Positions 45,601 to 61,105 of a DNA stretch of 64,000 bases are shown in pieces. The position numbers and the translations under genes are program-made. How positions within the stretch are numbered: the stretch's first letter is position 1; each line of letters opens with the position of its first letter. Source of the DNA: Candidatus Rokuibacteriota bacterium (GTDB lineage: Bacteria > Methylomirabilota > Methylomirabilia > Rokubacteriales > CSP1-6). The stretch covers positions 90 through 64,089 of the forward strand of contig VGLJ01000023.1 of assembly GCA_016866775.1 (NCBI GenBank). Direction: 5' to 3'. Under the pieces are notes generated by a model. That model made no database searches. It had not been told where the DNA came from and was given only the letters and a program-made list of their open reading frames with translations.

Positions 45601-46463
45601 GGTCGTGCGCGACGCGCTCGAGATCACGCAATCCCGCTGGCGCGAAGAGGTGGCGAGCCGCGGCATCGCGATCGACGTCCGCACCGCGCTCGGCGAGGTC
45701 CCGCACGTCGGCGGCGATGCCGTCGAGCTGCGCGAGGCGCTGACGAACCTGATCCTCAACGCCGTCGACGCGATGCCGGACGGTGGCGCGCTCTCGCTGC
45801 GCACGGCCATGGTCGACGACCTCGTCGAGCTGACCGTGCGCGACACCGGCCGTCGGGATGCCGGAGAGCGTGCGCCAGCGCATCTTCGACCCGTTCTTCA
45901 CCACGAAGGGCGCGCAGGGCACGGGTCTCGGGCTCTCGATCACCTACGGCATCCTGACGCGCCACCGCGCGCGCGTCACCGTGGAAAGCGAGCCGCGGCA
46001 GGGGACGACGTTCCGGCTCGCCTTCGAGCCGGGCGCCGAGCGCGCCGTCGTGGAGCTGGTGATGCCGGTGACCGCGCCGGCGGGCACGCCGCTCCGCTGT
46101 CTCGTGGTGGACGACGAAGAGCCGGTCGGCACCGTGCTCGGCGATGTGCTCGAGAGCAGCGGACACTCGGCGGTCGTGCTCACGAACGGCGCCGAAGCGA
46201 TCGAGCGCTTCCGGCACGAGCCGTTCGACGTCGTGTTCACGGACCTCGCCATGCCCGGCCTCTCGGGATGGCAGGTCGCGCGCGCGGTGAAGGCCTCCGC
46301 GCCGGCGGTGCCGGTCTTCCTCGTGACCGGCTTCGGCGTCGAGCTCTCCGCCGAGGAGCGGCGCGCGCACGGCGTGGATCTCGTGCTGAGCAAGCCGCTG
46401 AACATCGAGTCGATCCTCGAGGCCATCGCCCTGGCTGCCCACCAGCAGAGGCCGGGCGGATAA
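39573..46463 (+). CDS. Giant hybrid sensor histidine kinase: 11 tandem GAF domains, HisKA, HATPase and receiver. Two apparent frameshifts.
   Basis: Eleven GAF-like units each end in an A-x-A-hydrophobic-x-N-A-R-L-Y/F-like linker. After them come VAHDFNN (H-box), LILNAVDA (N-box), DTG.VGM...DPFFTTK and GLGLS, then a receiver domain (LVVDDE...DLAMPG...SKP). The reading frame changes near 41963 and near 45851. The start is uncertain; the GTG at 39573 overlaps pyk. Confidence 0.75.
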
Positions 46464-47276: not shown

Positions 47277-48035
47277 ATGAGCACCGCGACCCGACCGCGC
47301 GTCTACTACCGCCCGGGCTGATCGTCCTGCGCCAAGACGAAGGAGCTCGTCTCGTCTTGGGGGATCGAGTTCGATCCCGTCGACGTCCAGGCCGATCCGG
47401 CGGCGAAGGAGGAGCTGAAGCGCTTCGACATTCCCCGCGTGCCCGCGATCGTGTTCGGCGATCGCGCCGTGCACGGCTGGAATCCGAAAGGCTACGCGGA
47501 GCTGCTCGGCGTCGACTACAACCCCGACGTCAAGCTCGCGCCCGCGGTCCTCGCCGCCCGGCTCGATCGCGTCCTCGCGTCCACCGAGGCGCTGCTGCGC
47601 GTGATGCCGGACGCGCACATGGAATGGACGCCGCCGGAGCGCAAGCGTCCGCTCGCGGATCTCGGCTTCCACGTCTTCCGGCTGTCGCTCGGCTTCGTCG
47701 AGGGCATCGACAGCCTGCGCTATCCGGCGAGCGTGCACGAAGAGCTCGCGCCGCGTGAGATCCGCTCGGGTGAGGGGCTCGCGCGGTACGGCGCGCTGGT
47801 GCGCGCGCGCATCTCCGGGTGGTTCCAGGGCGCGGGCGGCGACGAGTTCGGCCGCACGGTCGAGGCCTACTGGGGACCGATCGGCGGCCACGACTTCCTG
47901 GAGCGCACGACGTGGCACGCCGCGCAGCATCTCCGCCAGCTCTACGTGCTCGCGGATCGCCTCGGCGTGAAGCCTCCGGCGCCCGAGCCGGTCGACGCGT
48001 ACAAGGACCTGCCGCTGCCGAAAGCGCTCTGGTAG
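47277..48035 (+). CDS. Glutaredoxin-like / DinB-domain fusion protein, candidate selenoprotein (in-frame TGA at 47319-47321)
   Basis: AAGGAG ribosome-binding site plus ATG at 47277. The frame reads RVYYRPG-TGA-SSCAKTKELVSSWGIEFDPVDV...VPAIVFGD. It is open all the way into the 47439-48035 ORF, which has DinB-like features (TTWHAAQHLRQL). The TGA sits at the first Cys of the CxxC motif. Confidence 0.7.
47332..47360 (+). promoter_or_regulatory. Candidate bacterial SECIS hairpin
   Basis: Perfect 9-bp stem CCAAGACGA/TCGTCTTGG with an 11-nt loop AGGAGCUCGUC. It begins 11 nt after the UGA. Confidence 0.55.
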
Positions 48036-48040
48036 AGCAC

Positions 48041-48070
48041 GGGCCCGGGTCCGCCGCCGGACCCGGGCCC
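48041..48070. terminator. Bidirectional hairpin terminator between convergent genes
   Basis: Perfect 13-bp GC stem GGGCCCGGGTCCG / CGGACCCGGGCCC with a 4-nt loop. It lies between the stops at 48035 (+) and 48082 (-). No U-tract. Confidence 0.5.
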
Positions 48071-48081
48071 GCATCGCTCCG

Positions 48082-48622
48082 TCACTGCAGATCGACGCTC
48101 GAGCCTTCCCGCACGCACCACGCGCGTTCGAGGGCGTCGTTGTGGACGAACCCGGCGCCCGCGGCCTCGGCGAAGTCCACGAACCACTTGATGTTCGGAC
48201 CCCCTGTGTCGAACTTGTGGGTGGCCGCCCAGAACGTCGGGCCCCGATGGGGGTTGGCCGACTCCATGTTCGCGAACGGATGGTTGCTCGGAAGCGCCGG
48301 GTGGTGGACGACCGGATCCACGAGCGAGGTCAGGTCCTGGACGGTGGGCAGTCGCCACCCCATGCGAAATCCGATGACGCGCCGGTTGCAGTGGATGCTC
48401 GCGTTCGTCCACGTGAAGGACCTCGATCGCCGGCGCCTGCTCCCAGATCAAGCCTGTTTCGGTGTCGAGGACCGCGCCTTGATAGATGCCGGCCAGGACC
48501 TCGAACCGTAGCTTGAACGGGCCGAACCCCTTGTCCTTCAGCATCTGGATGCCCGGCCCCGCCTCCGCGACTTGAGCACACACCAAGACCGCGACGATGA
48601 GCGCTGCCTGCCATCGCTTCAT
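48082..48622 (-). pseudogene. Secreted DUF1566 (Lcl C-terminal-like) domain protein with an apparent frameshift
   Basis: Signal peptide MKRWQAALIVAVLVCAQVAEA followed by DTETGLIWEQ in one frame. FTWTNASIHCN...GWRLPTVQDLTSLVD follows in another frame. The frame switch must lie within 48412-48447. Confidence 0.55.
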
Positions 48623-48859
48623 GAGATTTCGCCCCTCGGGTGACCGGTCCTGCGGCGCCCCCTGGCGCGCTCTGCCTGTCAGTGACGAGTCGTCATCACC
48701 TCCTTCGGCGAGTCCGGCGCCGATGCGGGCAGGAACCGCGCCAAACGTCGGTGCGTCGACTTCTCGCGGAGTTGACGCGTACGGGAGGCGGCTGGCGGCC
48801 GGCGGGCGCGACACAATGCCGTCCGCCCCGGGCCTTCGGCCAGGGCGGCGTGCCGGAGG

Positions 48860-49066
48860 CTAGATCCGGTCGAGCTCGGCGACCGTGCGGTTGCTCGTCG
48901 CGTTGCCCGTGTTCAGCGTGCCCTTCGGCTCGAGCAGCAGCACGTGGACCTCGTCGGTCAGCGCCTTCGGACGGTGCTCGCCGCCGCGCGGGACGATGAT
49001 CAACTCGCCGGGCCCGACGTTCCGGTCGCCGTCGCGGAGCTGCGTGGCGTCCCACTCATGAGTCAT
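48860..49066 (-). CDS. Cupin-fold fragment (C-terminal half only)
   Basis: PGELIIVPRGGEHRPKA...VLLLEPKGTLNTG resembles the second half of a small cupin. The first metal-binding motif is absent. Upstream sequence belongs to the neighbouring membrane-protein gene. Confidence 0.35.
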   Translation of the reverse strand: MTHEWDATQLRDGDRNVGPGELIIVPRGGEHRPKALTDEVHVLLLEPKGTLNTGNATSNRTVAELDRI

Positions 49067-50000
49067 CGCCCCACGCTTCCGTCAGGCGGTGCGCCAGCGT
49101 GCGGTGATGGCGGAAGAAGTACGCCAGCATCGCGCCCGCGGCGAGCAGGTTGCCCACGAAGATCGTCCAGCCCGCGACCTCGTTGAGGACCCAGTTGGCG
49201 GCGATGACGATGGCGCCGAACGAGGCGACCTCGAAGATCGTGAAGAGGATGATGAGCACGAGGACGAAGACGGGCTGGCGCTCGGCCGCGGCCACCAGCA
49301 TCGAGGCGACGATGCCGAAGCCGATGAACGCGATGCCGTGCACCAGCGAGTACGTCAGGGCCGCCGCCATGGGGTCGGTCTGACGCAGGAACGCCGTGCC
49401 GAGGAGCTTCGGCGTTCGCAGCGGCTCGCCCTGGATCGTGTCGACGGCGAGGAACCACAGCGCGACGATGACCGCGCCGACGACGCCGGCGACGACGCCT
49501 TCGCGCAGCACGCCGCCCCAGGACCCGATCAGGAGGCGCGCGAGCGCGCGATGACCGAAGAAGAAGTACCAGAGCATCGCGACCGCCGCCGCGAGGTTCC
49601 CCACGAGCACGGCCCACCACACGACGGCGCCCACCATCGAGCGGCCGACGGCGCCCAGCGCGCCCAAAAAGAACATCTCGAAGCAGGCGAAGAGGATGAT
49701 GACGGCGATGAAGAGCGGGGTCTCGCGCTCGCTCACCGCGATCAGCGCGGCGGCGATGACGCCGAACGCGATGAACGCGAGCCCGTGGAGGACCGTGTAC
49801 CCGAGGATCGGGCCGAAGGCGATCGGCGCCCCGGCCGGGTCGCGCACGCCGTAGAAGACCGCCGCGCCCAGGAGCGCCGGCGTCAGCAGGGGCTTGCCGC
49901 GCGCGATGTCGAAGATCAGGAACCAGAGGGCGACGACCGCGGCGCCGAGCAGCCCGCTCGTGACGCCTTCGCGCAGGACCGAGCGCTGTTCCCCGGCCAT
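49056..50000 (-). CDS. Membrane protein of unknown function built from two homologous 4-helix halves
   Basis: The two halves (about 1-157 and 158-314) align by eye. Shared features: LREGV, ALWFL..D, TP.LLG, HG.AFI.FG, ER.P, VGNL.AA.AML.YFF..HR.LA.RL. Confidence 0.6.
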   Translation of the reverse strand: MAGEQRSVLREGVTSGLLGAAVVALWFLIFDIARGKPLLTPALLGAAVFYGVRDPAGAPIAFGPILGYTVLHGLAFIAFGVIAAALIAVSERETPLFIAVIILFACFEMFFLGALGAVGRSMVGAVVWWAVLVGNLAAAVAMLWYFFFGHRALARLLIGSWGGVLREGVVAGVVGAVIVALWFLAVDTIQGEPLRTPKLLGTAFLRQTDPMAAALTYSLVHGIAFIGFGIVASMLVAAAERQPVFVLVLIILFTIFEVASFGAIVIAANWVLNEVAGWTIFVGNLLAAGAMLAYFFRHHRTLAHRLTEAWGDDS

Positions 50001-50034
50001 AGCCGGTAGTGTACTCGCGTTGCCGCGCGGGGGC

Positions 50035-50717
50035 TCAGACGTCGCGGGCGAGGCGGACGCCGTAGTCGGAGTAGCGCAGATGCGGCGGCAGCGACGACCG
50101 GTGGGCGACAGCGCTCCACGGATCGGCGTGGCGCCACGCGCCGCCGCGGCTCACGCGCCGGGTGCCGCGCTCGGGGCCGCGCGGATTGTCCGGCGCGGAC
50201 ACCGCGTAGTAGCCGTCGGCATACCAGTCGGCGCACCACTCGTGGCAGACCCCCGACAGATCGGTCAGGCCGAACGCGTTGGCGGGCGTGGCGCCCACGG
50301 ACGGCAAGGCGCCGATCGCGTGCGACGGCCGCGCGTCGCCCCACGGAAACCGCGCGCGCTCGACGCCGCCGCGCGCCGCGCGCTCCCACTCCGCTTCGGT
50401 CGGCAGGCGTGCGTTCATCCACGCCGCGAACGCGACGGCCTCGTCCCACGCCAGGCCGACGACCGGCTGGCGCGGATCGTCGAAGCCGGCACGCCGCCAG
50501 AACGCCGGCGCGGGGGCGCCGACGGCGTCGAGATACGGCGCGTAGTCGGCGTTCGTCACGGGCGTGGTCGCGATCGCGAACGCGTCGATCCACACGACGT
50601 GCGCGGGCCGCTCCGCGGGCGCTCCGGTGTCCGAGCCCATCGTGAAGCGCCCGGCCGGGATCGGGACGAAGTCCACGTACGCGAGTGTAGAATGGCGGCT
50701 CGATCCAGGAGGGTGCA
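50035..50717 (-). CDS. Formylglycine-generating enzyme family (SUMF1/EgtB-like) protein
   Basis: Has FVPIPAGRFTMGSD...LPTEAEWERAARGG...GVCHEWCADWY...RVSRGGAW. The start is either the ATG at 50717 or the GTG at 50676. Confidence 0.75.
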
Positions 50718-51883
50718 TGAACGTCGCCGCACGCATGGCGCGGCTCGGTACGGAATCGGCGTTCGAGGTCCTCGCGCGCGCGAAGGCGCTCGAGCGCCAG
50801 GGCAAGGACATCGTCCACCTCGAGATCGGCGAGCCCGACTTCGACACGCCCGAGCACATCCGCGACGCCGCCAAGCGCGCGCTCGACAACGGCGCCACGC
50901 ATTACGGGCCGTCGGCCGGGCTGCCCGAGCTGCGCGAGGCGATCGCCAGGCACGTGAGCGAGACCCGCGGCATCCGCGTCTCGCCGGACCAGGTCGTCGT
51001 GACGCCCGGCGCGAAGCCGATCATGTTCTTCGTCATCATGGCGCTCGTGGGTGAGGGCGACGAAGTCCTCTCCCCGGATCCCGGCTTCCCGATCTACGAG
51101 TCCGTGATCAACTTCGTCGGCGGCACGGCCGTCGGTGTGCCCCTGCGCGAGGCGACCGGGTTCAACTTCGACATGGACTTCTTCGAGGCGCACCTCACGC
51201 CGCGCACGAAGCTCATCATCATCAACTCGCCCCAGAACCCGACGGGCGGCGTGCTCGAGCGCGCGCAGCTCCAGCGCATCGCGGCCGTCGCGCGCGAGCG
51301 GAACATTCCCGTGCTCACCGACGAGATCTACCGCCACTTCCTCTACGACGGCGAGTTCGTCTCGATCCTGCGCGAGCCGGGGATCCTCGAGCGCGCGATC
51401 CTCCTCGACGGCTTCTCGAAGTCGTACGCGATGACGGGCTGGCGCCTCGGCTACGGCGTGATGCCCGTCGACCTCGCGGAGCACGTCACGCGGCTGATGG
51501 TGAACTCCGCGTCGTGCACGGCGTCGTTCGTGCAGCTCGCGGGCGTCGCCGCGCTCGAGGGCGAGCAGGCGTCCGTGGGACGGATGGTGGCGGAGTTCCG
51601 CCGCCGGCGCGACCTGATCGTCGACGGGCTCAACAAGCTGCCCGGCGTGACGTGCGTGCTGCCGCGCGGCGCCTTCTACGTGTTCCCGAACATCACCGGC
51701 ACCGGACGGCCGTCGGCGGAGGTCGCGACGCGGCTCCTCGACGAGGCCGGCGTCGCCGCGCTGGCGGGCACCGCGTTCGGGAGCCAGGGCGAAGGCTACC
51801 TGCGCCTCTCCTACGCCAACTCCGAAGCCAACCTCCGCAAGGCCCTCGAGCGCATGGAGCCCGTGTTCGCGTCGATGAAGTGA
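50716..51883 (+). CDS. Class I/II pyridoxal-phosphate aminotransferase (aspartate aminotransferase-like)
   Basis: Has LEIGEPDF, INSPQNPTG and GFSKSYAMTGWRLGY (PLP-lysine region). Confidence 0.85.
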
Positions 51884-53079
51884 CCGCGGCGGACATCGTC
51901 GCCGACGGCCTCCGGCGGGCCGGCGTGCGGCGCGCCTTCGCCGCGGACGGCGCGGACGCGACGCTCGTCGACGCGGTCCGCGCGACGGGCGTCCCGATCG
52001 TCGAAGTCCCCGGCGCCGGGCCGGCATGCGTGATGGCGGCCGTCACCGGACGCATCGGCGACGCGCCCGGTCTCGCGATCGTCTCCGCCGCCGATGGTGC
52101 GGTCCATCACGCGTTGACCGGCGCGGCGCGCGAGCGCGCCCCGTGCATCGTGCTCGCCTCCCAGGATCTTCCCCCGTCCTCCGATGCCTCCCCGGCGAAG
52201 GCGGCGATCATCGCCGGCGCCGACTCGGCGGCGCACTGGGTGGCCCACGCCGCGCAGGCGGCCATGAGCGAGCCGCAGGGCTGCGCGTGGCTGGCCGTCG
52301 CGCCCGATGTCGCGCGAGCGGCGTCGCTTCCCGTGGCGGCGGCCGTCCATCGCGCGGCGGAGCCGCTCGACGGCGCCGAGCTGGAGGAGCTCGCGCGGAC
52401 GATCGGTGGCGCCGCGCGGCCGCTGGTGGTCGCGGGACGCGGGTGTCGCGCGCGCGCGACCGCGACGTGGCTCCGGGCGCTCGCGGAAGCGCTGCCCGCG
52501 CCCGTGCTGGTGACGCCCGCGGGGCGCGGCGCGCTGCCCGATCCGCATCCGCTGTGTCACGGCCTCCTCGTTCGTGACGCGCCGGTCCTCCCGCGCGCCG
52601 ATCTCGTGCTCGCGCTCGGCGTGGACGACGACGAGCTCGCCGCGGCGGGCGTGAGCGTCGCGGCGCCGATCGTACGCGTGGGCCGCGTCGACGCGCTGCT
52701 CGAAGAGCTCGCGCCGCGGCTCCGGAGTCGCACGTGCGCCGACTGGGACGTCGCGGAGCTCGACCGCCTGCGCCGCGCGGGTCCGGCGCCGGACGTGGAC
52801 CCGCGACTCGCGGCGCTCGTCCGCCACGCGCGCGAGACGACAGAGGCGGGAACGGCCGCGGTGTTCGCGCGGCCGCTCGCGGCGCTCGCGCAGCTGTGGC
52901 AGGCGGTCGAGCCCGGCGAGCTGCTGATCGACGACGACGTGCTGGCGGCGAGCGTGGCCGTGTCGCTCGAGCGTCCGGACGCGGACGTCCTCGCGTTCGG
53001 CGTCGCGCCCGGCGACGGCCTCGCGCGCGTGCTCCGTTCGGACGCGTCGCGCGTCGTGGTCGTAGCCCTTGGTGGGTAA
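51880..53079 (+). CDS. Thiamine-diphosphate enzyme-like protein (short, acetolactate-synthase-related)
   Basis: GTGA overlap with the upstream gene. The N-terminal ADIVADGLRRAGVRRAF... and a central domain resemble TPP-enzyme N and M domains. It is shorter than canonical family members, and I did not recognise the C-terminal TPP motif. Confidence 0.45.
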   Translation: MTAADIVADGLRRAGVRRAFAADGADATLVDAVRATGVPIVEVPGAGPACVMAAVTGRIGDAPGLAIVSAADGAVHHALTGAARERAPCIVLASQDLPPSSDASPAKAAIIAGADSAAHWVAHAAQAAMSEPQGCAWLAVAPDVARAASLPVAAAVHRAAEPLDGAELEELARTIGGAARPLVVAGRGCRARATATWLRALAEALPAPVLVTPAGRGALPDPHPLCHGLLVRDAPVLPRADLVLALGVDDDELAAAGVSVAAPIVRVGRVDALLEELAPRLRSRTCADWDVAELDRLRRAGPAPDVDPRLAALVRHARETTEAGTAAVFARPLAALAQLWQAVEPGELLIDDDVLAASVAVSLERPDADVLAFGVAPGDGLARVLRSDASRVVVVALGG

Positions 53080-53106
53080 AACTTTGCTCACACGCCCTGG
53101 CGTGTG

Positions 53107-53135
53107 TTGTCAGTCGCGACGAGCTTCCGGATACT
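53107..53135 (+). promoter_or_regulatory. Putative promoter for the second hybrid kinase
   Basis: TTGTCA (53107-53112), a 17-nt spacer, then GATACT (53130-53135). The candidate GTG start at 53142 is 6 nt downstream. It is preceded by the inverted repeat CACACGCC-CTG-GGCGTGTG (53090-53108). Confidence 0.4.
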
Positions 53136-53141
53136 AGGCGG

Positions 53142-55404
<2,263 letters not shown>

Positions 55405-55421
55405 CGGTCGGGGTGACGACC

Positions 55422-55441
55422 GGGCGCGTATAATCGCGCCC
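55422..55441 (+). promoter_or_regulatory. Perfect -10 box embedded in an inverted repeat, directly upstream of a leaderless ATG
   Basis: GGGCGCG-TATAAT-CGCGCCC, with the TATAAT at 55429-55434. The ATG at 55442 follows 7 nt after the -10 element and has no Shine-Dalgarno sequence. I recognised no good -35 element. Confidence 0.4.
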
Positions 55442-56098
55442 ATGGGCCTCCTCAACGAGCGCGATCAGGCCGCCGTCCGCAAGGAGTTCGAAAAGCTCTC
55501 CGGTCCCGTGAAGCTGGTCGTCTTCTCGCAGTCCCTCGAGGCGGCGGAGCTGTGCCGGCAGAACGAGGAGCTCGTGCGCGAGGTCGCGGAGCTCGCGCCC
55601 GACACGATCACCGTCGAGGTGCTGAACCTCGCCATCGACCGCGAGCGCGCCGAGGCCTACGGCATCGAGCGCGTGCCCGCGATCGTCGTCGAGGGCGCGC
55701 GCGACTACGGCATCCGCTTCCTCGGTATCCCGGCGGGGTACGAGTTCTCGAATCTCATCGACTCGATCATCGCGGCGTCGTCGGGCACCGCGGCGCTCAG
55801 CGCGGAGACGCAGCGCGCGCTCGCCGGCCTCACCGAGGCCGTCGACATCAAGGTCTTCTCGACACCCACCTGACCGTACTGTCCCCGGGCCGTGCGCCTG
55901 GCACAGCACATGGCGGTCGCGTCGGATCGGGTCAGCGCCACCGCGATCGAGGCGACCGCGTTCCCCGACCTGAGCCGCGCCTATCGCGTGTCCGCGGTCC
56001 CGAAGATCGTGATCAACGATCGCGTCGAGTTCGAGGGCGCGCTCCCCGAGCCCGACTTCCTCGGCGCCGTGCTTCGCGCCGCCGGCCCCGCGGCGTGA
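55442..56098 (+). CDS. Two-domain glutaredoxin-like protein disulfide oxidoreductase (archaeal PDO / GlrX_arch-like), candidate selenoprotein (in-frame TGA at 55871-55873)
   Basis: ORFs 55346-55873 and 55892-56098 are in the same frame, separated only by the TGA. The read-through sequence is IKVFSTPT-TGA-PYCPRAVRLAQHMA...FPDLSRAYRVSAVPKIVIND. This is the canonical CPYC unit, with the first Cys replaced by TGA. Confidence 0.75.
55885..55901 (+). promoter_or_regulatory. Candidate bacterial SECIS hairpin
   Basis: 6-bp stem CCGGGC/GCCUGG (one G-U pair) with loop CGUGC, starting 12 nt after the UGA. An alternative longer fold spans 55889-55914. Confidence 0.4.
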
Positions 56099-56619
56099 TC
56101 CGCGTCGCGGCCGCGCTCGGCGCCGGGCTGGCGTTCGCGGCCGAGCGCCCGAATCCGCCCGCCGTCGGTGAGGCCGCGCCCGACCTGCAGCTCCGCGATC
56201 AGAACGGGCGCAGCTTCGTGCTCCGCGACGTCCTGAAGGAGCGCGAGTTCGTCATCCTCGCCTTCTATCCGAAAGCGTTCACGAGCGGCTGAGGGACGGA
56301 ATTCTCCCGGTTCCGGGAGGACGCGGGCCGGTTCGCGGCGCTGAACGCGGAAGTCGTCGGCATCTCCGCCGACGGCCCGGACCGCAACCTCGCGTGGGCG
56401 AGGGAGCTGAAGCTTCCGTTCCGGCTGCTGAGCGACGTCGATCCGGCGGGCCAGGTGGGCAAGCGGTACGGGGTGTGGGACGACCTCTGGCGGGTCCAGC
56501 GGCGGACGACGTTCGTCGTCGATCGGCACGGCAAGGTGCGGTGGACGGACGCCGGGCGTGACTGCATCGACACGAGCCGGACGCTCGACGCCGTCGCGCG
56601 GCTTGCCCGCGAGAAATAG
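56095..56619 (+). CDS. Bcp/AhpC-TSA family peroxiredoxin, candidate selenoprotein (in-frame TGA at 56290-56292)
   Basis: The GTG start overlaps the upstream stop (GTGA). The frame reads VGEAAPDLQL...VILAFYPKAFTSG-TGA-GTEFSRFRED...VVGISADG...LPFRLLSDVD...YGVW. It stays open to the TAG at 56617. The TGA replaces the peroxidatic Cys of the PxxxTxxC motif. Confidence 0.75.
56302..56321 (+). promoter_or_regulatory. Candidate bacterial SECIS hairpin
   Basis: CUCCCG-GUUC-CGGGAG forms a 6-7 bp GC stem, extendable by U-A and U-G pairs. The core stem starts 12 nt after the UGA. The 4-nt apical loop contains G-U. Confidence 0.6.
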
Positions 56620-56661
56620 TTGACCGTCAAGGACGGTCAAGGCGCAAGGGAGACTCTCCCC

Positions 56662-57015
56662 ATGTTCGTCTACGGCACGCTGATGCGCGGACAACCCGCG
56701 CACGCGATGCTCGCCGGACACGCCACGTTCGTCGGTGAAGGCACCGTCCCCGGGACGCTGCTGGCGCTCGGGCGGTATCCGGGCGCGGTCGCCGGGCGCC
56801 GTCGCGTGCGCGGGGAGCTCTGGCTCCTCGCGAGGCCCGAAGTTCTTCGGACTCTCGACGAGTACGAGGGGTACAATTTCGAGCGGCGCGTGACGGTCGC
56901 GATGCTCGCGAGCGGGCGCCGCGTGCGCACGTGGATCTACCGATATCGCGGCCGTCGCGATGGACGCGCGACGGCCATTCCCGACGGTGACTGGAGGACA
57001 CATCGATGGCGCTGA
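56662..57015 (+). CDS. Gamma-glutamylcyclotransferase (AIG2/GGCT-like)
   Basis: AAGGGAG ribosome-binding site plus ATG. Has MFVYGTLMRG...G.L...YPG...V.GEL...LDEYEG. Confidence 0.75.
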   Translation: MFVYGTLMRGQPAHAMLAGHATFVGEGTVPGTLLALGRYPGAVAGRRRVRGELWLLARPEVLRTLDEYEGYNFERRVTVAMLASGRRVRTWIYRYRGRRDGRATAIPDGDWRTHRWR

Positions 57016-58388
57016 CGCCCGCCGAGCTCGTCAAGGCCGATCAGGAGCACCTGATCCATCCGCTGCACCATCCGATCGATCACTCCGAGCCGATCGTCTA
57101 CGTGCGCGGCCGCGGGGCGACGGTCACGGATGCGACGGGCAAGGACTATCTGGACGGGCTCGCGGGACTGTGGAACGTCAACGTGGGGCACGGACGCGCG
57201 GAGCTCGCGGAAGCCGCGGCGGCGCAGATCAAGGAGCTCGCGTACTTCTCCGCGTACACGGGCTCTTCGAACGTGCCCGCGATCACGCTCGCCAGCCGGC
57301 TCGTCGACCTCGCGTCGAACGTCTTCGCCGCGGTGTTCTTCACCTCCGGCGGCGCCGAGTCGAACGAGTCGGCGTTCAAGACCGCGCGGTTCTACTGGAA
57401 GGCGCAGGGCAAGCCCGACAAGACGAAGGTCATCGCGCGCGCCAACGCCTATCACGGCGTGACGCTGCAGGCGATGAGCGCGACGGGCATGGGCGCCTAC
57501 TGGAAGATGTTCGAGCCGCGCGTGCCCGGCTTCGTCCACATTCCCACGTGCTACCCGTACCGCCAGGTCGACCAGAAGCCGGGGGAGAGCGCGGGCCAGA
57601 CGGCCGCGCGCCTGCTCGAGGAAGCGATCCTGCGCGAGGGCGCGGACACCGTCGCCGCGTTCATCGCCGAACCGATCCACGGCGGCGGCGGCGTGCTCTA
57701 TCCCGACGAGGACTACTTCCGGCTCGTGAGAAAGGTGTGCGACACGCACCAGGTCCTGTTCATCGCCGACGAGGTCATCACCGGCTTCTGCCGCACCGGA
57801 CGGTGGTTCGCGATGTCCCACTGGAACGTGAAGCCGGACATCATGTCGTTCGCGAAGGGCGTGACCTCCGGCTATCTCCCGCTCGGCGGCATCATGGTCT
57901 CGAAGGCGATCAAGGACACGATGGACACGGTCAAGCCCGAAGATCGCTGGATGCACGCGTACACGTACTCCGGGCATCCGACGTGCTGCGCGGTCGCGCT
58001 GCGCAACCTCGACATCATGGAGAAGGAGCGGCTCTGGGAGAACGCCGCGAAGATGGGCGACCGTCTCCACGCCGGCCTCAAGCGCGCCTTCGGCAATCAT
58101 CCGAACGTGGGCGACATCCGTGGCGGCAAGGGGCTGCTGGCCGCCGTCGAGTTCGTCGAGGACAAGGCGACCAAGGCGAACTTCGGCGCCGACAAGAAGC
58201 TCGCGAACCGGCTGATGGCCGAGATGGCCAAGCGCGGCGTGATGACGCGCGTGCGCGCTGCCGCCGGCGCGCATCCGAACGTCGGCGACAGCTTGTTCTT
58301 CTCTCCGCCCCTCGTGGTGACCGAGGCCGAAGTGGATCGACTCGTGTCGGTCGCTCGTGAGTCGGCGAAAGCCGTCCTCGGCCAGTGA
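57006..58388 (+). CDS. Class III (omega) aminotransferase
   Basis: Has GLWNVNVGHGR, AAFIAEPIHGGGGV, FIADEVITGFCRTG and SFAKGVTSGYLPLG (PLP-lysine region). Confidence 0.85.
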   Translation: MALTPAELVKADQEHLIHPLHHPIDHSEPIVYVRGRGATVTDATGKDYLDGLAGLWNVNVGHGRAELAEAAAAQIKELAYFSAYTGSSNVPAITLASRLVDLASNVFAAVFFTSGGAESNESAFKTARFYWKAQGKPDKTKVIARANAYHGVTLQAMSATGMGAYWKMFEPRVPGFVHIPTCYPYRQVDQKPGESAGQTAARLLEEAILREGADTVAAFIAEPIHGGGGVLYPDEDYFRLVRKVCDTHQVLFIADEVITGFCRTGRWFAMSHWNVKPDIMSFAKGVTSGYLPLGGIMVSKAIKDTMDTVKPEDRWMHAYTYSGHPTCCAVALRNLDIMEKERLWENAAKMGDRLHAGLKRAFGNHPNVGDIRGGKGLLAAVEFVEDKATKANFGADKKLANRLMAEMAKRGVMTRVRAAAGAHPNVGDSLFFSPPLVVTEAEVDRLVSVARESAKAVLGQ

Positions 58389-58400
58389 GATCGGGGACAT

Positions 58401-58470
58401 GGGAGGGGAGCCCGGCTCCCCTCCCAAACCCTCCCCAGAGCCGAATCGAACCGCCAGCCGCTGATCGCCT
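58401..58470. repeat. GC-rich hairpin repeat, divergent family 2-like copy C
   Basis: Hairpin GGGAGGGGAGC-CCG-GCTCCCCTCCC, followed by AAACCCTCCCCAGAG. The architecture is the same as copies D and E, but the 3-prime part is divergent. Confidence 0.45.
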
Positions 58471-58476
58471 ACGCCG

Positions 58477-58674
58477 ATGAAGCTCATCACGGCGCATCGC
58501 ATCCTCATCGCCGCGGGCATCGCGTTCTTCCTGTTCTACGCGCTGCTCCAGGCGCGCATCTACGTCGTCCGCGACGGGGGCCTCGGCGCCATGCTCCAGG
58601 CCGGCGGTGCCGTCGCGGTCGCGGTCGGCCTGACGATCTACTACCGCTCGCTCCGGCACTGGGGCCGTCGCTGA
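58477..58674 (+). CDS. Small two-helix membrane protein, unknown function
   Basis: ATG start, 65 aa, two hydrophobic segments (ILIAAGIAFFLFYALL and AVAVAVGLTIYY). Confidence 0.4.
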   Translation: MKLITAHRILIAAGIAFFLFYALLQARIYVVRDGGLGAMLQAGGAVAVAVGLTIYYRSLRHWGRR

Positions 58675-58753
58675 ATCCCCGCGCGCCGGCCGGCGTCGTC
58701 CGCGACCTCACCGTCGCGCGCATGGAGATCAGGAAGCCCTAGACTTCCGAGTC

Positions 58754-59125
58754 GTGAGCCCGCCGGCGGTCCTCATCTACGACGCGGAGTGCCCGATGTG
58801 CCGGGCGAGCGCGCTGTGGCTCATGCGCCTCGCGCTCTCCGGTCGCCGTCTCGAGATCCTTCCGTGCCGTTCGCGGCTCCGCGCCGAGCGCCATCCGCAG
58901 ATCAGCGAGCAGGCCTGTCTCACCGCGATGCAGCTCGCGCTCCCCGATGGCCGCGTCCTGGCCGGCGCCGACGCGGTGCCGGTGCTGTTGCGCCGGATCC
59001 GCGGCCTCGGCTGGCTGGCGGTGGTCTTCGCGCTTCCGGGCATGCGGCCGCTCGCGCGCCGCGTCTACGGCTGGATCGCGCGGAATCGCATGCGGATCTC
59101 GTGCGCGATCTCGTCTCCGCGCTGA
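58754..59125 (+). CDS. Thiol-disulfide oxidoreductase, DCC family (DUF393)
   Basis: Has VLIYDAECPMCR (the family's N-terminal CxxC context) and VYGWIARNR. Confidence 0.7.
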   Translation: MSPPAVLIYDAECPMCRASALWLMRLALSGRRLEILPCRSRLRAERHPQISEQACLTAMQLALPDGRVLAGADAVPVLLRRIRGLGWLAVVFALPGMRPLARRVYGWIARNRMRISCAISSPR

Positions 59126-59146
59126 TCTCGGCTTCGGATTCCCGTG

Positions 59147-59395
59147 TCAGCGTTTTCCCGGCGCGAAGAACGGCGCGGTCGCCGCCGCGTGATCGGTGAT
59201 GTCGATGACCGCCATCACGCCGGGCAGATGCTTCCGGAGGATCGGCTCGATCCCTTGCCGGAGCGTGACCTCGGCCAGGCGGCAGCCCTGGCACCCGCCT
59301 TCGAGACGCAGCTCGACGCGGCCATCCGCACCACGCACGAGGGTCACGTGACCGCCGTGAGCCGACACGGCGGGATTGATCTCCGCGTCGATCAC
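59147..59395 (-). CDS. NifU/Nfu C-terminal-domain Fe-S scaffold-like protein
   Basis: Has VIDAEINPAVSAHGGHVTLV...LEGGCQGC...TLRQGIE..L. The GTG at 59395 is the first canonical start; the true start is uncertain. Confidence 0.55.
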   Translation of the reverse strand: MIDAEINPAVSAHGGHVTLVRGADGRVELRLEGGCQGCRLAEVTLRQGIEPILRKHLPGVMAVIDITDHAAATAPFFAPGKR

Positions 59396-59526
59396 GCGCT
59401 GGACATCCGAGGCAAAATCGTCGGCGTCACCGTCCGTTCGACGGCGGCGATGACCGCGGCGCGGATGCCGGTGTTCTCGGGAGAGGCGATCGTGTCGGGC
59501 GGGATCGTCCGCGCGGCCGCAGGCAC

Positions 59527-59724
59527 GCTCTCCAGCGCACGCGAAAGATCGGCAATGAGATCGATGGGACTCTCGAGGCCGATCGAGAGGCGGAGGAGAT
59601 CCGCCGGGATCGGCGAAGAGGCGCCTTCCGTCGTGCGGCGATGCTCGATGAGGCTCTCGACGCCGCCGAGCGAGGTGCCCCGCGTGAAGACCCGGACACC
59701 TGCCAGCACTGCGAGTGCGGCCGC
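59527..59724 (-). pseudogene. C-terminal remnant of a Cys/Met-metabolism PLP enzyme (cystathionine gamma-synthase/lyase-like)
   Basis: FTRGTSLGGVESLIEH...LLRLSIGLESPIDLIADLSRAL matches the conserved C-terminus of this family. The N-terminal roughly 300 aa are absent. Confidence 0.5.
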
Positions 59725-61105
59725 GCGCATCCCGCTCTCGCAACCGACCCTGTCCGAGCACATCCACGAGCTGGAGCGCGAGATGGGCGCGAAGCTCTTC
59801 GACCGCGCCGGCCGGCGCGTGACCCTCACCGACGCCGGCCGTGCCTTCGCGCCGCACGCGGCGCACATCGTCGCCTCCGTCGGCGATGCCCGGCAGGCGG
59901 TGTCCGAGCTCGACGGTCTCGCGCACGGCACGCTCCTCGTCGGAGCCAGTACCACGCCCGGCATCTACGTGCTGCCTCGTGTGGTCGCCGCCTTCCAGCG
60001 GCGGCATCCCGGCGTGACGCTCACGCTGACGATCGCCAACTCGCGCGTCATCGAGGAGCGCGTGCGCGCCGACGAGCTCGACATCGGCTGCGGCGCGGGC
60101 TCGTACGGCCGCCTCCTGCAGCGTAGCTTCGACGTCGTCGACGCGGTCGAGATCTTCGAGCCGTACGTCGCGGCGTACGGGCTGCCGTCGCTGTACCGGC
60201 GCGTCTTCGTGGCCGACGCGCTGACGTTCGAGTTCGACTACTACGACGTCGTCATCCTCGGCGACGTGCTCGAGCACCTGACCGAGGACGACGGCGTCCG
60301 GCTGATCGAGCGGATCTACGACCGGTGCGACGAGCTCGTCGTCGCCATCCCGTTCCTCTCCGAGCAGGCGGTGGAACACGGCAACCCGCACGAGGCCCAC
60401 CGGCAGGCCGCGATCACGCACGAGCGGTTCGTGACGCGCTACGAGGGCGTCATTCCGTACAGCCTGCGCTACGACTATGGCGTGTACGTCAAGGACGCGC
60501 TCTCGAACCGCGGCATCGTGCCGATCAACGACGCGTTCTATCTGGAGGAGGCGACCCGGCTCCTCCGTGGAGAGCGCAACGTCACGCTCGTCACCGCCGC
60601 GCTGACCGATGCGCAGGCCGACACCCTGGAGAGCGTCGTGCGCGCGCCGGCCAACCTCATCGTGTTCGCGCCGCCCGCGATCGGCGAGCGCATCCAGGCG
60701 GCGCGATCCGGGCGCGCGACGCAGATCGTGAGCTGGGACGAGGGACAGGCCGCCCGGGACTTCCCGTTCGCGGACCGCCTCACGCCGGCGCAGGATCCGT
60801 TCGCGCTGTCCACGATGTTCAGGCTCCACGACGCCGCGTGCCTCGACAGGTTCACATCGACGCACCTCTTCTGGGTCGATGCCGGGGCGCCACGGCCCGA
60901 GGACGTCGTCGCGTGGAGCGAGAAGGCGCCCGACGTGTTCGTGTGCGGTCCGTCGTTCTTCGGCGGTCCGAAGAGTGTGCTGCGGCGGGCCAGCGAGCTC
61001 TACTCCGGTCTGCTCCGCGCGGCGCTCGAGCGGGGATGGGACGGCGCGGCCATGACGCTGCTGGCCCGGACGTACCCGAGTCTGGTCCACACCGTCGTGG
61101 CATAG
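59720..61105 (+). pseudogene. Chimeric ORF: LysR-type regulator lacking its first ~25 codons, fused in frame to a SAM-methyltransferase-like and unknown C-terminal region
   Basis: The LysR part is LSQPTLSEHIHELEREMGAKLFDRAGRRVTLTDAG...GIYVLPRVVAAFQRRHPGVTLTLT...ADELDIG. It runs straight into a methyltransferase-like region, starting at motif I (CGAGSYG...VVILGDVLEHL). The junction is at about 60080-60090. There is no plausible start or HTH N-terminus. Confidence 0.5.

What the first reader, a model, noticed from the sequence alone, without database searches (positions are those of the whole stretch)
47277..59395. Selenium-dependent thiol-redox island: three UGA-at-Cys genes with uniform hairpin spacing among other redox genes
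Three independent in-frame TGAs (47319, 55871, 56290) each replace the redox-active Cys of a thioredoxin-fold enzyme. Each is followed by a hairpin starting 11-12 nt downstream.

Elsewhere in the window TGA clearly acts as a stop, including many ATGA and GTGA gene overlaps. So this is site-specific recoding, not a reassigned genetic code.

The Sec-PDO and Sec-Prx pair could form a selenol-based peroxide-reducing relay, with the PDO as reductant of the Prx.

The pair sits:
- directly after a hybrid histidine kinase;
- before a gamma-glutamylcyclotransferase and an omega-aminotransferase;
- close to a DCC-family thiol oxidoreductase and an Nfu-like Fe-S protein.

Whether this gene set forms one functional system is inference.
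Basis: inference. Interest (0 to 1): 0.75.

Follow-up and report, generated by a model that had tools for sequence, protein, structure and literature searches.

The report
Three ordinary selenoprotein genes in Rokubacteria
The three in-frame TGA codons are genuine selenocysteine codons in three thiol-redox enzymes of a soil or groundwater Rokubacteria genome, but two belong to known selenoprotein families, the third is a Sec form of an existing family, and they do not form a single selenium "island".

Summary
TGAs at 47319, 55871 and 56290 interrupt three thioredoxin-fold genes exactly at the catalytic Cys. They are the only internal TGAs in 37 curated genes, and TGA ends 22 of those genes.

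Comparative data settle the Sec reading:
- TGA is kept in 80/80, 27/27 and 9/9 orthologues from other Rokubacteria/Methylomirabilota genomes.
- Synonymous sites freeze in the downstream hairpins.
- The PDO hairpin covaries across phyla.
- Cys-form homologues align Cys to each TGA.

The families:
- The PDO is a member of NCBIfam TIGR02187 "PDO_seleno_TRX", a catalogued selenoprotein family.
- The peroxiredoxin is a BCP-like TxxU Prx.
- The third gene is a glutaredoxin–DinB_2 fusion (USSC). This fusion is absent from the 2026 inventory of 119 selenoprotein families.

The "island" idea is only partly supported. PDO–(Prx)–GGACT–aminotransferase–small membrane protein–DCC is conserved in the phylum. 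The histidine kinase and the Nfu gene are not.

The Prx has an N-terminal export signal in 27/28 genomes and no resolving Cys. It is absent, sometimes leaving relics, from about 60% of loci that keep the PDO. A direct cytoplasmic PDO→Prx relay is therefore unlikely.

Sec machinery was not found in the sequence held. Interest is low to moderate.

The parts
47277..48035 (+). Selenoprotein gene 1: an NrdH-like glutaredoxin domain fused to a DinB_2 four-helix-bundle domain. It is 252 aa, with Sec15 in the motif G-U-S-S-C. The DinB His triad is H132, H214 and H218.
   Evidence: Translation. Pfam Glutaredoxin 1e-11 and DinB_2 6e-9, both above cutoff. TGA conserved in 9/9 orthologues. Cys-form homologues carry PGCSSC at the same place. 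The His triad is invariant. AF2 model of the Cys form has pLDDT 86 and matches DinB/YfiT plus NrdH structures.
47319..47321 (+). Sec-UGA codon of the Grx-DinB gene.
47332..47377 (+). Candidate bSECIS of gene 1. It has a 9-bp stem (47332-47340 with 47352-47360) plus a 2-bp ministem and a 5-nt loop AGCUC. A second hairpin lies at 47362-47377.
   Evidence: 17 predicted pairs, 4 with compensatory changes, mostly in the second hairpin. Synonymous-codon entropy is about 0 in the stem codons.
55442..56098 (+). Selenoprotein gene 2: a protein disulfide oxidoreductase of 218 aa with two Trx folds. Sec144 lies in T-U-P-Y-C. The N-terminal redox site is degenerate (AELC). There is no signal peptide.
   Evidence: NCBIfam TIGR02187.2 PDO_seleno_TRX, 253 bits against a cutoff of 185. 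Full-length match to PfPDO 1A8L, E 2.7e-42. TGA conserved in 80/80. The same motif with TGA occurs in at least 120 genomes of many phyla.
55871..55873 (+). Sec-UGA codon of the PDO.
55879..55906 (+). bSECIS of the PDO. The inner 6-bp stem is CCGGGC/GCCUGG (55885-55890 with 55896-55901) with loop CGUGC. An outer 3-bp stem flanks it.
   Evidence: Codons P-R-A-V-R-L are frozen at synonymous sites in 81 sequences. Cross-phylum covariation: GCGAGC/GCUCGC, CCGUGC/GCACGG and others. 93/104 sequences have the hairpin against 27-29/104 in control windows.
56095..56619 (+). Selenoprotein gene 3: a BCP-like peroxiredoxin of 174 aa. Sec66 lies in PxxxTxxU, the catalytic Arg is kept, and there is no conserved resolving Cys. 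Its GTG start overlaps the PDO stop as GTGA.
   Evidence: Pfam AhpC-TSA 5e-34. It scores below every NCBIfam equivalog cutoff. TGA conserved in 27/27. Alignment to Cys forms. No Cys in the mature part in 24/28 orthologues.
56095..56139 (+). Predicted export signal of the Prx: (M)IR-VAAALGAGLAFA|A.
   Evidence: 27/28 orthologues show a positive n-region, an 11-aa hydrophobic core (mean Kyte-Doolittle 2.1-3.6) and a small-x-small site. This is a heuristic; no SignalP was available.
56290..56292 (+). Sec-UGA codon of the Prx.
56302..56321 (+). bSECIS of the Prx: an 8-bp stem UUCUCCCG/CGGGAGGA with loop GUUC.
   Evidence: 84.7% of cells are paired in 27 sequences against 34-62% for slid registers, but covariation is not significant. 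Stem codons F-S-R-F-R have frozen synonymous sites.
56662..57015 (+). GGACT/AIG2-like gamma-glutamyl(amine) cyclotransferase. It is a conserved downstream neighbour of the PDO.
   Evidence: Pfam PF06094 8e-25. Present in nearly all of the 80 loci.
57006..58388 (+). Class-III (omega) aminotransferase. It overlaps the GGACT gene by 10 nt.
   Evidence: Pfam Aminotran_3 1e-93. Overlap. Conserved.
58477..58674 (+). Small 65-aa predicted membrane protein with no Cys and no family match. It is conserved between the aminotransferase and DCC.
58754..59125 (+). DCC1-like (DUF393) CxxC thiol-disulfide oxidoreductase. It marks the end of the conserved co-directional cluster.
   Evidence: Pfam PF04134 2e-20. 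Detected in 56 of the 80 loci, many of which end before this position.

Best explanation
The window is a fragment of a Rokubacteria (Methylomirabilota) genome. It carries three separate, conventional bacterial selenoprotein genes.

**Recoding (inferred mechanism).** In each gene a UGA at the catalytic Cys position is recoded to selenocysteine. A stem-loop 9-11 nt downstream, inside the coding sequence, would recruit SelB and Sec-tRNA(Sec).

**Gene 2** is a cytoplasmic protein disulfide oxidoreductase of the PDO / AhpF-N-terminal-domain family. Only its C-terminal site (UPYC) is active. It is most likely kept reduced by a thioredoxin-reductase-type flavoenzyme and acts as a general disulfide or selenenylsulfide reductase.

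**Gene 3**, immediately downstream and start/stop-coupled, is a BCP-like peroxiredoxin.
- It has an N-terminal export signal.
- Sec is its only redox residue.
- It therefore probably scavenges peroxides outside the cytoplasm. A periplasmic thiol donor would recycle it, as with Caulobacter PprX, rather than the PDO directly.
- It is an accessory gene, lost in most relatives.

**Gene 1**, 8 kb upstream, is a Sec form of an uncharacterised glutaredoxin–DinB_2 fusion family. The DinB domain keeps the His triad of metal-dependent thiol S-transferases. The fused Sec-glutaredoxin plausibly delivers or resolves the thiol or selenol adduct.

**Shown:** the recoding signature, family membership, synteny and the export-signal pattern.

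**Inferred:** the SelB mechanism, cellular locations, electron donors and substrates.

**Clustering.** The grouping reflects a selenoprotein-rich lineage plus inherited synteny. One probable operon runs PDO-(Prx)-GGACT-aminotransferase-TM65-DCC. It is not a dedicated selenium system.
For: **Origin.** The 80 best related loci are nearly all Rokubacteria/Methylomirabilota MAGs.

**Sec evidence.**
- TGA is kept in 80/80 PDO, 27/27 Prx and 9/9 Grx-DinB orthologues.
- Four- and six-fold degenerate codons inside the hairpin stems have codon entropy 0-0.3 bits, against about 1-1.7 bits elsewhere in the same genes.
- The Sec-PDO hairpin is kept at the same offset in 93/104 distinct sequences from many phyla, against 27-29/104 in control windows. 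At least five different complementary arm pairs occur.
- All three hairpins fit the published bSECIS constraints from PMC13188914: loop 3-9 nt, G in the first two loop positions, 16-37 nt spacing, MFE at or below -7.5 kcal/mol. Tested against the folds.
- Cys/Sec pairs are seen for each gene.
- Database gene calls are truncated at the TGA.
- TGA is the usual stop elsewhere.

**Family assignments:**

**Export of the Prx.**
- Export signal and absence of other Cys.
- Precedent for a periplasmic BCP-type Prx reduced by TlpA/ScsB: PMC3322552.

**Synteny and Prx loss:**

**Selenoproteins in the phylum.** A Methylomirabilota MAG has 63 predicted selenoproteins (PMC13188914). Sec-hydrogenases are reported in the phylum (PMC13582414).
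Against: **Machinery.** No selA, selB, selD or tRNA-Sec was found in the window or in about 1.7 Mb of related loci. The machinery is therefore assumed from the literature on the phylum, not shown for this genome.

**Prx hairpin.** Its support is conservation only; covariation does not differ from shuffles.

**Export signal.** It is judged by simple hydrophobicity and charge rules, not by a trained predictor or experiment.

**Arguments for some PDO-Prx link.**
- The GTGA start/stop overlap.
- The known PDO→Bcp (PMC7465337) and AhpF-NTD→AhpC relays.

**Unknown functions.** Nothing here shows what the PDO, GGACT, aminotransferase or DCC proteins act on.
Confidence: 0.8

Rival explanations
1. The Sec-PDO is the dedicated cytoplasmic reductant of the Sec-Prx. 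Together with the kinase, GGACT, aminotransferase, DCC and Nfu genes they form one selenium-dependent thiol-redox island.
For: - The PDO and Prx genes are adjacent, co-directional and overlap as GTGA.
- The PDO is homologous to the AhpF N-terminal domain.
- Sulfolobus PDO plus thioredoxin reductase regenerates Bcp peroxiredoxins (PMC7465337).
- PDO-GGACT-aminotransferase-DCC order is conserved.
- In Anaerolineae the Sec-PDO also sits next to redox and peroxidase genes: TlpA-like and OsmC-like.
Against: - The Prx has an export signal in 27/28 orthologues and the PDO has none.
- About 46 of 76 loci keep the Sec-PDO without a Prx. Deletion relics are visible in some.
- The kinase and Nfu are not conserved neighbours.
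- The GGACT/aminotransferase link is seen only inside Methylomirabilota and not in other phyla with a Sec-PDO. This fits inherited synteny.
Confidence: 0.12
2. The PDO feeds electrons across the membrane to the exported Sec-Prx. In Anaerolineae the recipient would be the membrane-anchored TlpA-like protein. An unrecognised transporter, possibly involving the 65-aa membrane protein or DCC, would carry the electrons. The result would be a selenium-based envelope peroxide defence.
For: In two distant phyla a cytoplasmic Sec-PDO gene is followed directly by an extracytoplasmic AhpC/TSA-fold redox protein. A small membrane protein and a CxxC DCC1-like protein are conserved in the same cluster.
Against: - No DsbD, CcdA or ScsB-like gene was seen in the cluster.
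- The 65-aa protein has no Cys.
- The Prx is dispensable while the rest of the cluster is kept.
- The evidence is purely associative.
Confidence: 0.06
3. The UGAs are decoded through the SECIS and SelB route, but as cysteine, by a tRNA-Cys with Sec-like features. This has been described for some bacteria. The proteins would then be ordinary thiol enzymes.
For: Such recoding exists; it is reference B47 in PMC13582414. The tRNA gene could not be inspected here.
Against: It has a low prior. The phylum is reported to hold many predicted selenoproteins. Conservation of UGA rather than UGY in every orthologue over 66-83% protein identity is most simply explained by selection for Sec.
Confidence: 0.02
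4. The TGAs are real stops. On this reading the genes are split genes, pseudogenes or sequencing errors, or TGA is reassigned genome-wide.
For: Automatic gene callers split all three genes at the TGA. The window does contain apparent frameshifts in other genes.
Against: - TGA at exactly the catalytic Cys in all three genes.
- Conserved in 80/80, 27/27 and 9/9 genomes.
- Identical in independent assemblies.
- The coding frame and domain continue across each TGA.
- TGA ends 22 of 37 genes.
Confidence: 0.01

Closest known systems
[quoted passage not shown]
   Same: - Full-length homology: 253 bits, above the curated cutoff, and E 2.7e-42 to 1A8L.
- Two Trx folds.
- UxxC at the C-terminal CPYC site, as listed for the family in PMC13188914 Table 1 and PMC1794560.
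   Different: The N-terminal CxxC of archaeal PDOs is degenerate here (AELC), as in AhpF. Members described earlier came from thermophiles (Carboxydothermus, Symbiobacterium). Here the Sec form is universal in a mesophilic soil and groundwater phylum and widespread in Acidobacteriota, Chloroflexota, Bacillota and others.
Sec-containing peroxiredoxins (Prx, TxxU; PrxU of Eubacterium acidaminophilum)
   Same: AhpC/TSA fold, Sec at the peroxidatic position of PxxxTxxU, and a conserved Arg. The family is listed as experimentally verified.
   Different: - It scores far below the PrxU equivalog (56 against 270 bits) and the BCP equivalog (71 against 140 bits).
- It carries an export signal and has no resolving Cys.
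- No close Cys-form sibling was found. The nearest Cys forms share 37-48% identity.
Caulobacter crescentus PprX, a periplasmic BCP/PrxQ-type peroxiredoxin reduced by TlpA/ScsB (PMC3322552)
   Same: A BCP-subfamily Prx with an N-terminal signal extension of about 20 aa. It is expected to need a periplasmic Trx-like donor.
   Different: PprX uses Cys and has a resolving Cys. The Rokubacteria protein has Sec as its sole redox residue. No ScsB, DsbD or TlpA partner was identified here.
Sec-glutaredoxins (Grx, UxxC; e.g. Clostridium oremlandii, Geobacter) and NrdH-like redoxins
   Same: The N-terminal 75 aa match Pfam Glutaredoxin and NrdH/cGrx1 structures, with UxxC at the CxxC site.
   Different: It is fused to a 170-aa DinB_2 domain. 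It scores below the cutoffs of all NCBIfam Grx and selenoprotein models. The fusion is not among the 119 families or subfamilies listed in PMC13188914. No paper combining DinB and selenoprotein was found.
DinB/YfiT-family metal-dependent thiol S-transferases (YfiT 1RXQ, DR0053 6IZ2, M. tuberculosis mycothiol S-transferase 8F5V)
   Same: Four-helix-bundle fold (Foldseek TM 0.68-0.86 to the targets). The invariant His triad is kept.
   Different: Sequence identity is 13-21%. No solved or described member has a fused redoxin. Activity and thiol cofactor are unknown.

Membership tests
Bacterial selenoprotein gene (Sec-UGA + bSECIS) | An in-frame UGA aligns with Cys in homologues (a Cys/Sec pair). 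| tested here: met
   PfPDO CPYC. BCP homologues, FTSGC-T. Cys-form Grx-DinB, PGCSSC.
Bacterial selenoprotein gene (Sec-UGA + bSECIS) | UGA-containing orthologues occur in other organisms. | tested here: met
   80/80, 27/27 and 9/9. The Sec-PDO motif occurs in at least 120 genomes of many phyla.
Bacterial selenoprotein gene (Sec-UGA + bSECIS) | A downstream stem-loop fits the bSECIS model: loop 3-9 nt, G in the first two loop positions, 16-37 nt from UGA to the loop, MFE at or below -7.5 kcal/mol. | tested here: met
   Criteria come from PMC13188914.
- Prx: loop GUUC, spacing 17 nt, -12.3 kcal/mol.
- PDO: loop CGUGC, spacing 17 nt, -13.4 kcal/mol.
- Grx: loop AGCUC, which requires the 2-bp ministem; spacing 22 nt.

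Conservation and covariation are.
Bacterial selenoprotein gene (Sec-UGA + bSECIS) | selA, selB, selC (tRNA-Sec) and selD are present in the same genome. | not testable with these tools
   None was found in the 64-kb window or in the fetched loci. The rest of the genome is not held. Only literature on the phylum is available.
Bacterial selenoprotein gene (Sec-UGA + bSECIS) | Selenium is incorporated into the protein. | not testable with these tools
   This needs 75Se labelling or mass spectrometry.
TIGR02187 PDO_seleno_TRX (protein disulfide oxidoreductase) | The score is above the curated equivalog cutoff over the full length. | tested here: met
   253.1 bits against a cutoff of 185; residues 6-212 match profile positions 2-208 of 209.
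TIGR02187 PDO_seleno_TRX (protein disulfide oxidoreductase) | A C-terminal C/U-P-Y/H-C redox site followed by the cis-Pro of a Trx fold. | tested here: met
   TPTUPYCP aligns to TPTCPYCP of 1A8L, and AVPKIVI is kept.
Peroxiredoxin, BCP/PrxQ subfamily | The PxxxTxxC(U) motif and the catalytic Arg. | tested here: met
   YPKAFTSGU, and an invariant Arg in RxTFV.
Peroxiredoxin, BCP/PrxQ subfamily | The equivalog score for thioredoxin-dependent thiol peroxidase (PRK09437) or PrxU (NF040737). | tested here: not met
   71 bits against 140, and 56 against 270. It is a Prx by fold and motif, but not a member of those equivalogs.
Peroxiredoxin, BCP/PrxQ subfamily | A resolving Cys (2-Cys mechanism). | tested here: not met
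   There is no Cys in the mature sequence of 24/28 orthologues. The window's single Cys is not conserved.
AhpF-NTD/AhpC-type or PDO/Bcp-type cytoplasmic relay | Reductant and peroxidase share the same compartment and co-occur. | tested here: not met
   The Prx has an export signal and the PDO does not. The PDO occurs without a Prx in about 46/76 loci. Location is a heuristic prediction only.
Glutaredoxin (PF00462) + DinB_2 (PF12867) fusion family | Both domains score above the Pfam gathering scores, with the CxxC site and the DinB His triad present. | tested here: met
   45.2 bits against 22.9, and 36.8 against 24.8. USSC and H132/H214/H218. The library of representatives holds 396 with E below 1e-10, many of them full-length Cys forms.

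The most novel reading that the evidence does not exclude
Two linked readings remain possible.

(a) The glutaredoxin–DinB_2 protein with USSC is a selenoprotein subfamily absent from current inventories: a metal-dependent thiol-transferase module with a built-in selenol redoxin.

(b) The recurrent placement of a cytoplasmic Sec-PDO directly upstream of an exported AhpC/TSA-fold protein reflects an undescribed route. The exported partner is a signal-peptide 1-Sec peroxiredoxin in Rokubacteria and a membrane-anchored WCPPC TlpA-like protein in Anaerolineae. The route would carry reducing power from a selenoprotein in the cytoplasm to a selenium-based peroxide defence in the envelope.

The probability given is for (b), the more novel part. 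Part (a) is likely true (about 0.6 that it is unlisted) but of modest interest.
Probability: 0.08. Interest if true: 0.6.

Novelty: new member of a known kind. Interest (0 to 1): 0.3.

Why it matters
**Practical value.** Standard gene callers split all three genes, so public databases hold hundreds of truncated "DinB family", "Thioredoxin_3" and "peroxiredoxin" fragments from Rokubacteria and other soil phyla. Correct models would repair those annotations.

**Scale of Sec use.** Sec use in thiol-redox enzymes appears fixed across a whole abundant, mostly aerobic or microaerobic soil and groundwater lineage. Until recently such use was described mainly in anaerobes.

**Leads for biochemistry.** The exported peroxiredoxin with Sec as its only redox residue, and the Sec-glutaredoxin–DinB fusion, are small concrete leads on why Sec is preferred where reductant is scarce or over-oxidation is a risk.

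**Limits.** Nothing here changes how Sec recoding is understood. The families are already catalogued or are straightforward Cys-to-Sec variants.

Tried and rejected
- **tRNA and machinery.** ARAGORN found no tRNA in the window. A "tRNA-???" in L065/L135 is a spurious call antisense to a coding region. No tool allowed a targeted search of the rest of these genomes.
- **Rfam.** Nothing at gathering thresholds.
- **Promoter and terminator scan.** Only a lineage-specific palindrome after the Prx gene.
- **Single-sequence folding statistics.** Not significant, so they were not used as evidence.
- **Covariation test on the Prx hairpin within Rokubacteria.** No better than shuffles.
- **Prx next to the Sec-PDO in other phyla.** The weak hits to my BCP profile turned out to be membrane-anchored TlpA-like WCPPC proteins, not peroxiredoxins.
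- **FGE-sulfatase gene near the DinB gene.** I considered an EgtB- or OvoA-like split (ergothioneine or ovothiol). The genes are divergent and separated by a membrane-protein gene, and I found nothing to support the idea.
- **Literature.** Searches for Rokubacteria with selenocysteine or selenium, and for DinB selenoproteins, found nothing specific.

Full report
**What is in the sequence**

| TGA | Gene span | Size | Domains | Motif |
|---|---|---|---|---|
| 47319 | 47277-48035 | 252 codons | N-terminal glutaredoxin + C-terminal DinB_2 | G-U-S-S-C |
| 55871 | 55442-56098 | 218 aa | two thioredoxin folds (PDO) | T-U-P-Y-C |
| 56290 | 56095-56619 | 174 aa | AhpC/TSA peroxiredoxin | P-K-A-F-T-S-G-U |

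These assignments rest.

- A GC3 frame plot shows the coding frame continuing across each TGA.
- Two systematic scans of both strands found no further TGA with coding signal on both sides.
- In 37 curated genes TGA is the stop of 22. Four gene pairs overlap as GTGA. The only internal TGAs are these three. TGA is therefore not reassigned.
- Identical 60-nt contexts occur in four independent assemblies from two JGI metagenomes and two SRA runs. The TGAs are therefore not sequencing errors.

**Hairpins**

Each TGA is followed by a stem-loop starting 12-14 nt after the U of UGA.

Taken alone they prove little.
- The fold z-scores for the 60-nt windows are -1.9, +0.6 and +0.4.
- In this GC-rich coding DNA, a stem of at least 6 bp at that offset is found at 12% of codon positions. 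A stem of at least 8 bp is found at 2.2%.

The decisive evidence is comparative. A scan of one genome per species returned 80 related loci, nearly all Rokubacteria/Methylomirabilota MAGs, with 66-83% PDO identity.
- TGA is present at the aligned codon in 80/80 PDO, 27/27 peroxiredoxin and 9/9 Grx-DinB genes.
- Codons forming the stems are frozen at synonymous sites. For the PDO these are CCC-CGG-GCC-GUG-CGC-CUG, with codon entropy 0-0.3 bits in 81 sequences. The same amino acids elsewhere in the gene show about 1-1.7 bits. The other two genes behave the same way.
- A DNA pattern for T-P-T-U-P-[YH]-C-P-R found the Sec form of the PDO in at least 120 further genomes. These include Acidobacteriota, Chloroflexota, Bacillota (including the cultured Sulfobacillus thermotolerans Kr1), Armatimonadota, Binatia and Zixibacteria.
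- In 93 of 104 distinct sequences a hairpin of at least 5 bp starts at nt 13-19. In control windows of the same genes the figure is 27-29 of 104.
- The arms differ while staying complementary: CCGGGC/GCCUGG, GCGAGC/GCUCGC, CCGUGC/GCACGG, CCGUGUG/CGUGCGG and GGCGGCCA/UGGCCGCC.
- All three hairpins meet the published bSECIS constraints (PMC13188914).
- For the peroxiredoxin hairpin the support is conservation only. Covariation within Rokubacteria is no better than shuffles.

**Cys/Sec pairs and families**

The PDO:
- It scores 253 bits against NCBIfam TIGR02187.2 "PDO_seleno_TRX", whose cutoff is 185.
- It aligns end to end with Pyrococcus furiosus PDO (1A8L, E 2.7e-42). TPTUPYCP sits on TPTCPYCP, and the N-terminal CQYC site is degenerate.

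The peroxiredoxin:
- It has the PxxxTxxU motif and the catalytic Arg.
- It scores below every NCBIfam equivalog cutoff.
- Its close database relatives are all fragments truncated at the TGA. The nearest Cys forms share 37-48% identity.

The Grx-DinB protein:
- It has no curated family match above cutoff.
- The library of representatives holds 396 relatives with E below 1e-10. Many are full-length Cys forms with PGC(S/T)SC at the aligned site. Others are truncated just after that site, as expected for Sec forms.
- The DinB His triad (H132, H214, H218 in the window protein) is invariant.
- An AlphaFold model of a Cys form (pLDDT 86) matches DinB/YfiT thiol-transferase bundles and NrdH-like redoxins. 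No solved structure contains both domains.
- The fusion is not among the 119 selenoprotein families or subfamilies compiled in 2026. I found no paper on it.

**Is it an island?**

Gene order across the 80 loci is:

(response regulator)–enoyl-CoA hydratase–Grx-DinB–membrane protein(-)–FGE-like(-)–aminotransferase I/II–TPP-enzyme-like–[variable insert]–PDO–(Prx)–GGACT–class-III aminotransferase–65-aa membrane protein–DCC1-like.

- The hybrid kinase of the window occupies the variable insert and is not conserved.
- The Nfu ORF follows DCC in none of the 80 loci. It lies in a visibly rearranged stretch.
- PDO to DCC are co-directional with gaps of 4-90 nt or overlaps. This is probably an operon.
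- The GGACT/aminotransferase association is confined to Methylomirabilota and absent from other phyla with a Sec-PDO. It may be inherited synteny rather than shared function.

**The PDO–Prx relay**

In favour:
- The adjacency and the GTGA overlap.
- The precedents AhpF-NTD→AhpC and Sulfolobus PDO→Bcp (PMC7465337).

Against:
- Every Prx orthologue begins with a positively charged stretch, an 11+ residue hydrophobic core and a small-x-small site. Heuristic criteria are met in 27/28. The PDO N-terminus is hydrophilic.
- The mature Prx has no Cys in 24/28 orthologues. It is therefore a 1-Sec enzyme needing an external donor.
- Only 28 of 76 informative loci have the Prx. Two keep internal relics, and several keep its last codons directly after the PDO stop. 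The Prx has thus been deleted repeatedly while the Sec-PDO is always kept.

The closest functional analogue is Caulobacter PprX. It is a signal-peptide BCP-type peroxiredoxin reduced in the periplasm by TlpA/ScsB (PMC3322552).

One curious parallel: in Anaerolineae the Sec-PDO is followed by a membrane-anchored TlpA-like WCPPC protein, an OsmC-like peroxidase and a rhodanese. Some link between this PDO family and peroxide or envelope redox genes is therefore plausible. A direct cytoplasmic relay in Rokubacteria is not.

**Sec machinery**

- No tRNA, selA, selB or selD was found in the window or in about 1.7 Mb of fetched loci.
- I could not search the remainder of these genomes.
- The literature reports a Methylomirabilota MAG with 63 predicted selenoprotein genes (Deng et al. 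2026, cited in PMC13188914). It also reports Sec-hydrogenases in the phylum (PMC13582414).
- This point remains inferred for this genome.

**Verdict**

- Two of the three genes belong to catalogued selenoprotein families. The third is a Cys-to-Sec variant of an uncharacterised but sizeable family.
- The "selenium-dependent redox island" is better described as three independent selenoprotein genes in a selenoprotein-rich lineage. Two of them sit in one conserved operon-like cluster.
- The proposed PDO→Prx relay is unlikely as stated, because the Prx appears to be exported and is dispensable.
- Interest is low to moderate. The value lies mainly in annotation repair, plus two small biochemical leads: the exported 1-Sec peroxiredoxin and the Sec-Grx–DinB fusion.

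Noticed in passing
window 45840-45860; 54160-54190; also ~39650 and ~41950: There are apparent single-base frameshifts inside histidine-kinase genes.
- An extra C splits a HATPase_c domain: ...TVRDTG | [20 protein letters not shown].
- An indel in a (GC)n run separates the sensor part from the HisKA part of the hybrid kinase upstream of the PDO.
- The giant GAF-repeat kinase changes frame twice.

These are either assembly indels or pseudogenes.
   Followed up: partly
window 59126-61105: A LysR-type N-terminal half is fused in frame to a SAM-methyltransferase-like part at '...ADELDIG|CGAGSYG' (~60090). On the minus strand it is preceded by an 82-aa NifU-domain ORF without a clear start and by a 112-aa Cys/Met-PLP enzyme fragment. 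This is a decayed or rearranged variable region. None of it is conserved next to DCC in the 80 related loci.
   Followed up: partly
window 56620-56640: A perfect 9-bp palindrome, TTGACCGTC-AAG-GACGGTCAA, lies between the Prx stop and the GGACT start. It is absent from the corresponding spacer in other Rokubacteria loci. It could be an operator or a terminator-like element.
   Followed up: partly
L004 6668-6775, L029 6725-6832; L007, L032 just after the PDO stop: Loci lacking the Prx still carry internal fragments of it or its last ~7 codons (KLARAK*). This shows repeated deletion of the Sec-Prx gene in the lineage.
   Followed up: partly
L083, L085, L091, L100, L106, L109, L120, L170, L181, L190 (downstream of the Sec-PDO): In Anaerolineae/Chloroflexota the Sec-PDO gene is followed by a membrane-anchored TlpA/ResA-like protein (WATWCPPC). 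An OsmC-like peroxidase comes next, often followed by a rhodanese. This redox cluster differs from the Rokubacteria one.
   Followed up: partly
window 47362-47377: A second hairpin lies directly after the Grx-DinB SECIS stem. It shows a G-C to A-U compensatory change, coupling an Ile/Val change with a synonymous Asp codon, in 4 of 10 orthologues.
   Followed up: no
window 48082-51883: Between the Grx-DinB gene and the PDO lie several genes:
- a conserved divergent pair, consisting of a duplicated-domain membrane protein with no family match and an FGE-sulfatase-like protein;
- an aminotransferase I/II;
- a TPP-enzyme-like ORF that matched only the N-terminal and central TPP-enzyme domains in Pfam.

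DinB plus FGE domains together recall EgtB/OvoA, but here they are separate, divergent genes.
   Followed up: no
window 25678-27573: This ORF looks like a fragment of a type III restriction-modification methylase/helicase and has lower GC3 than its neighbours. It may be horizontally acquired or decayed.
   Followed up: no
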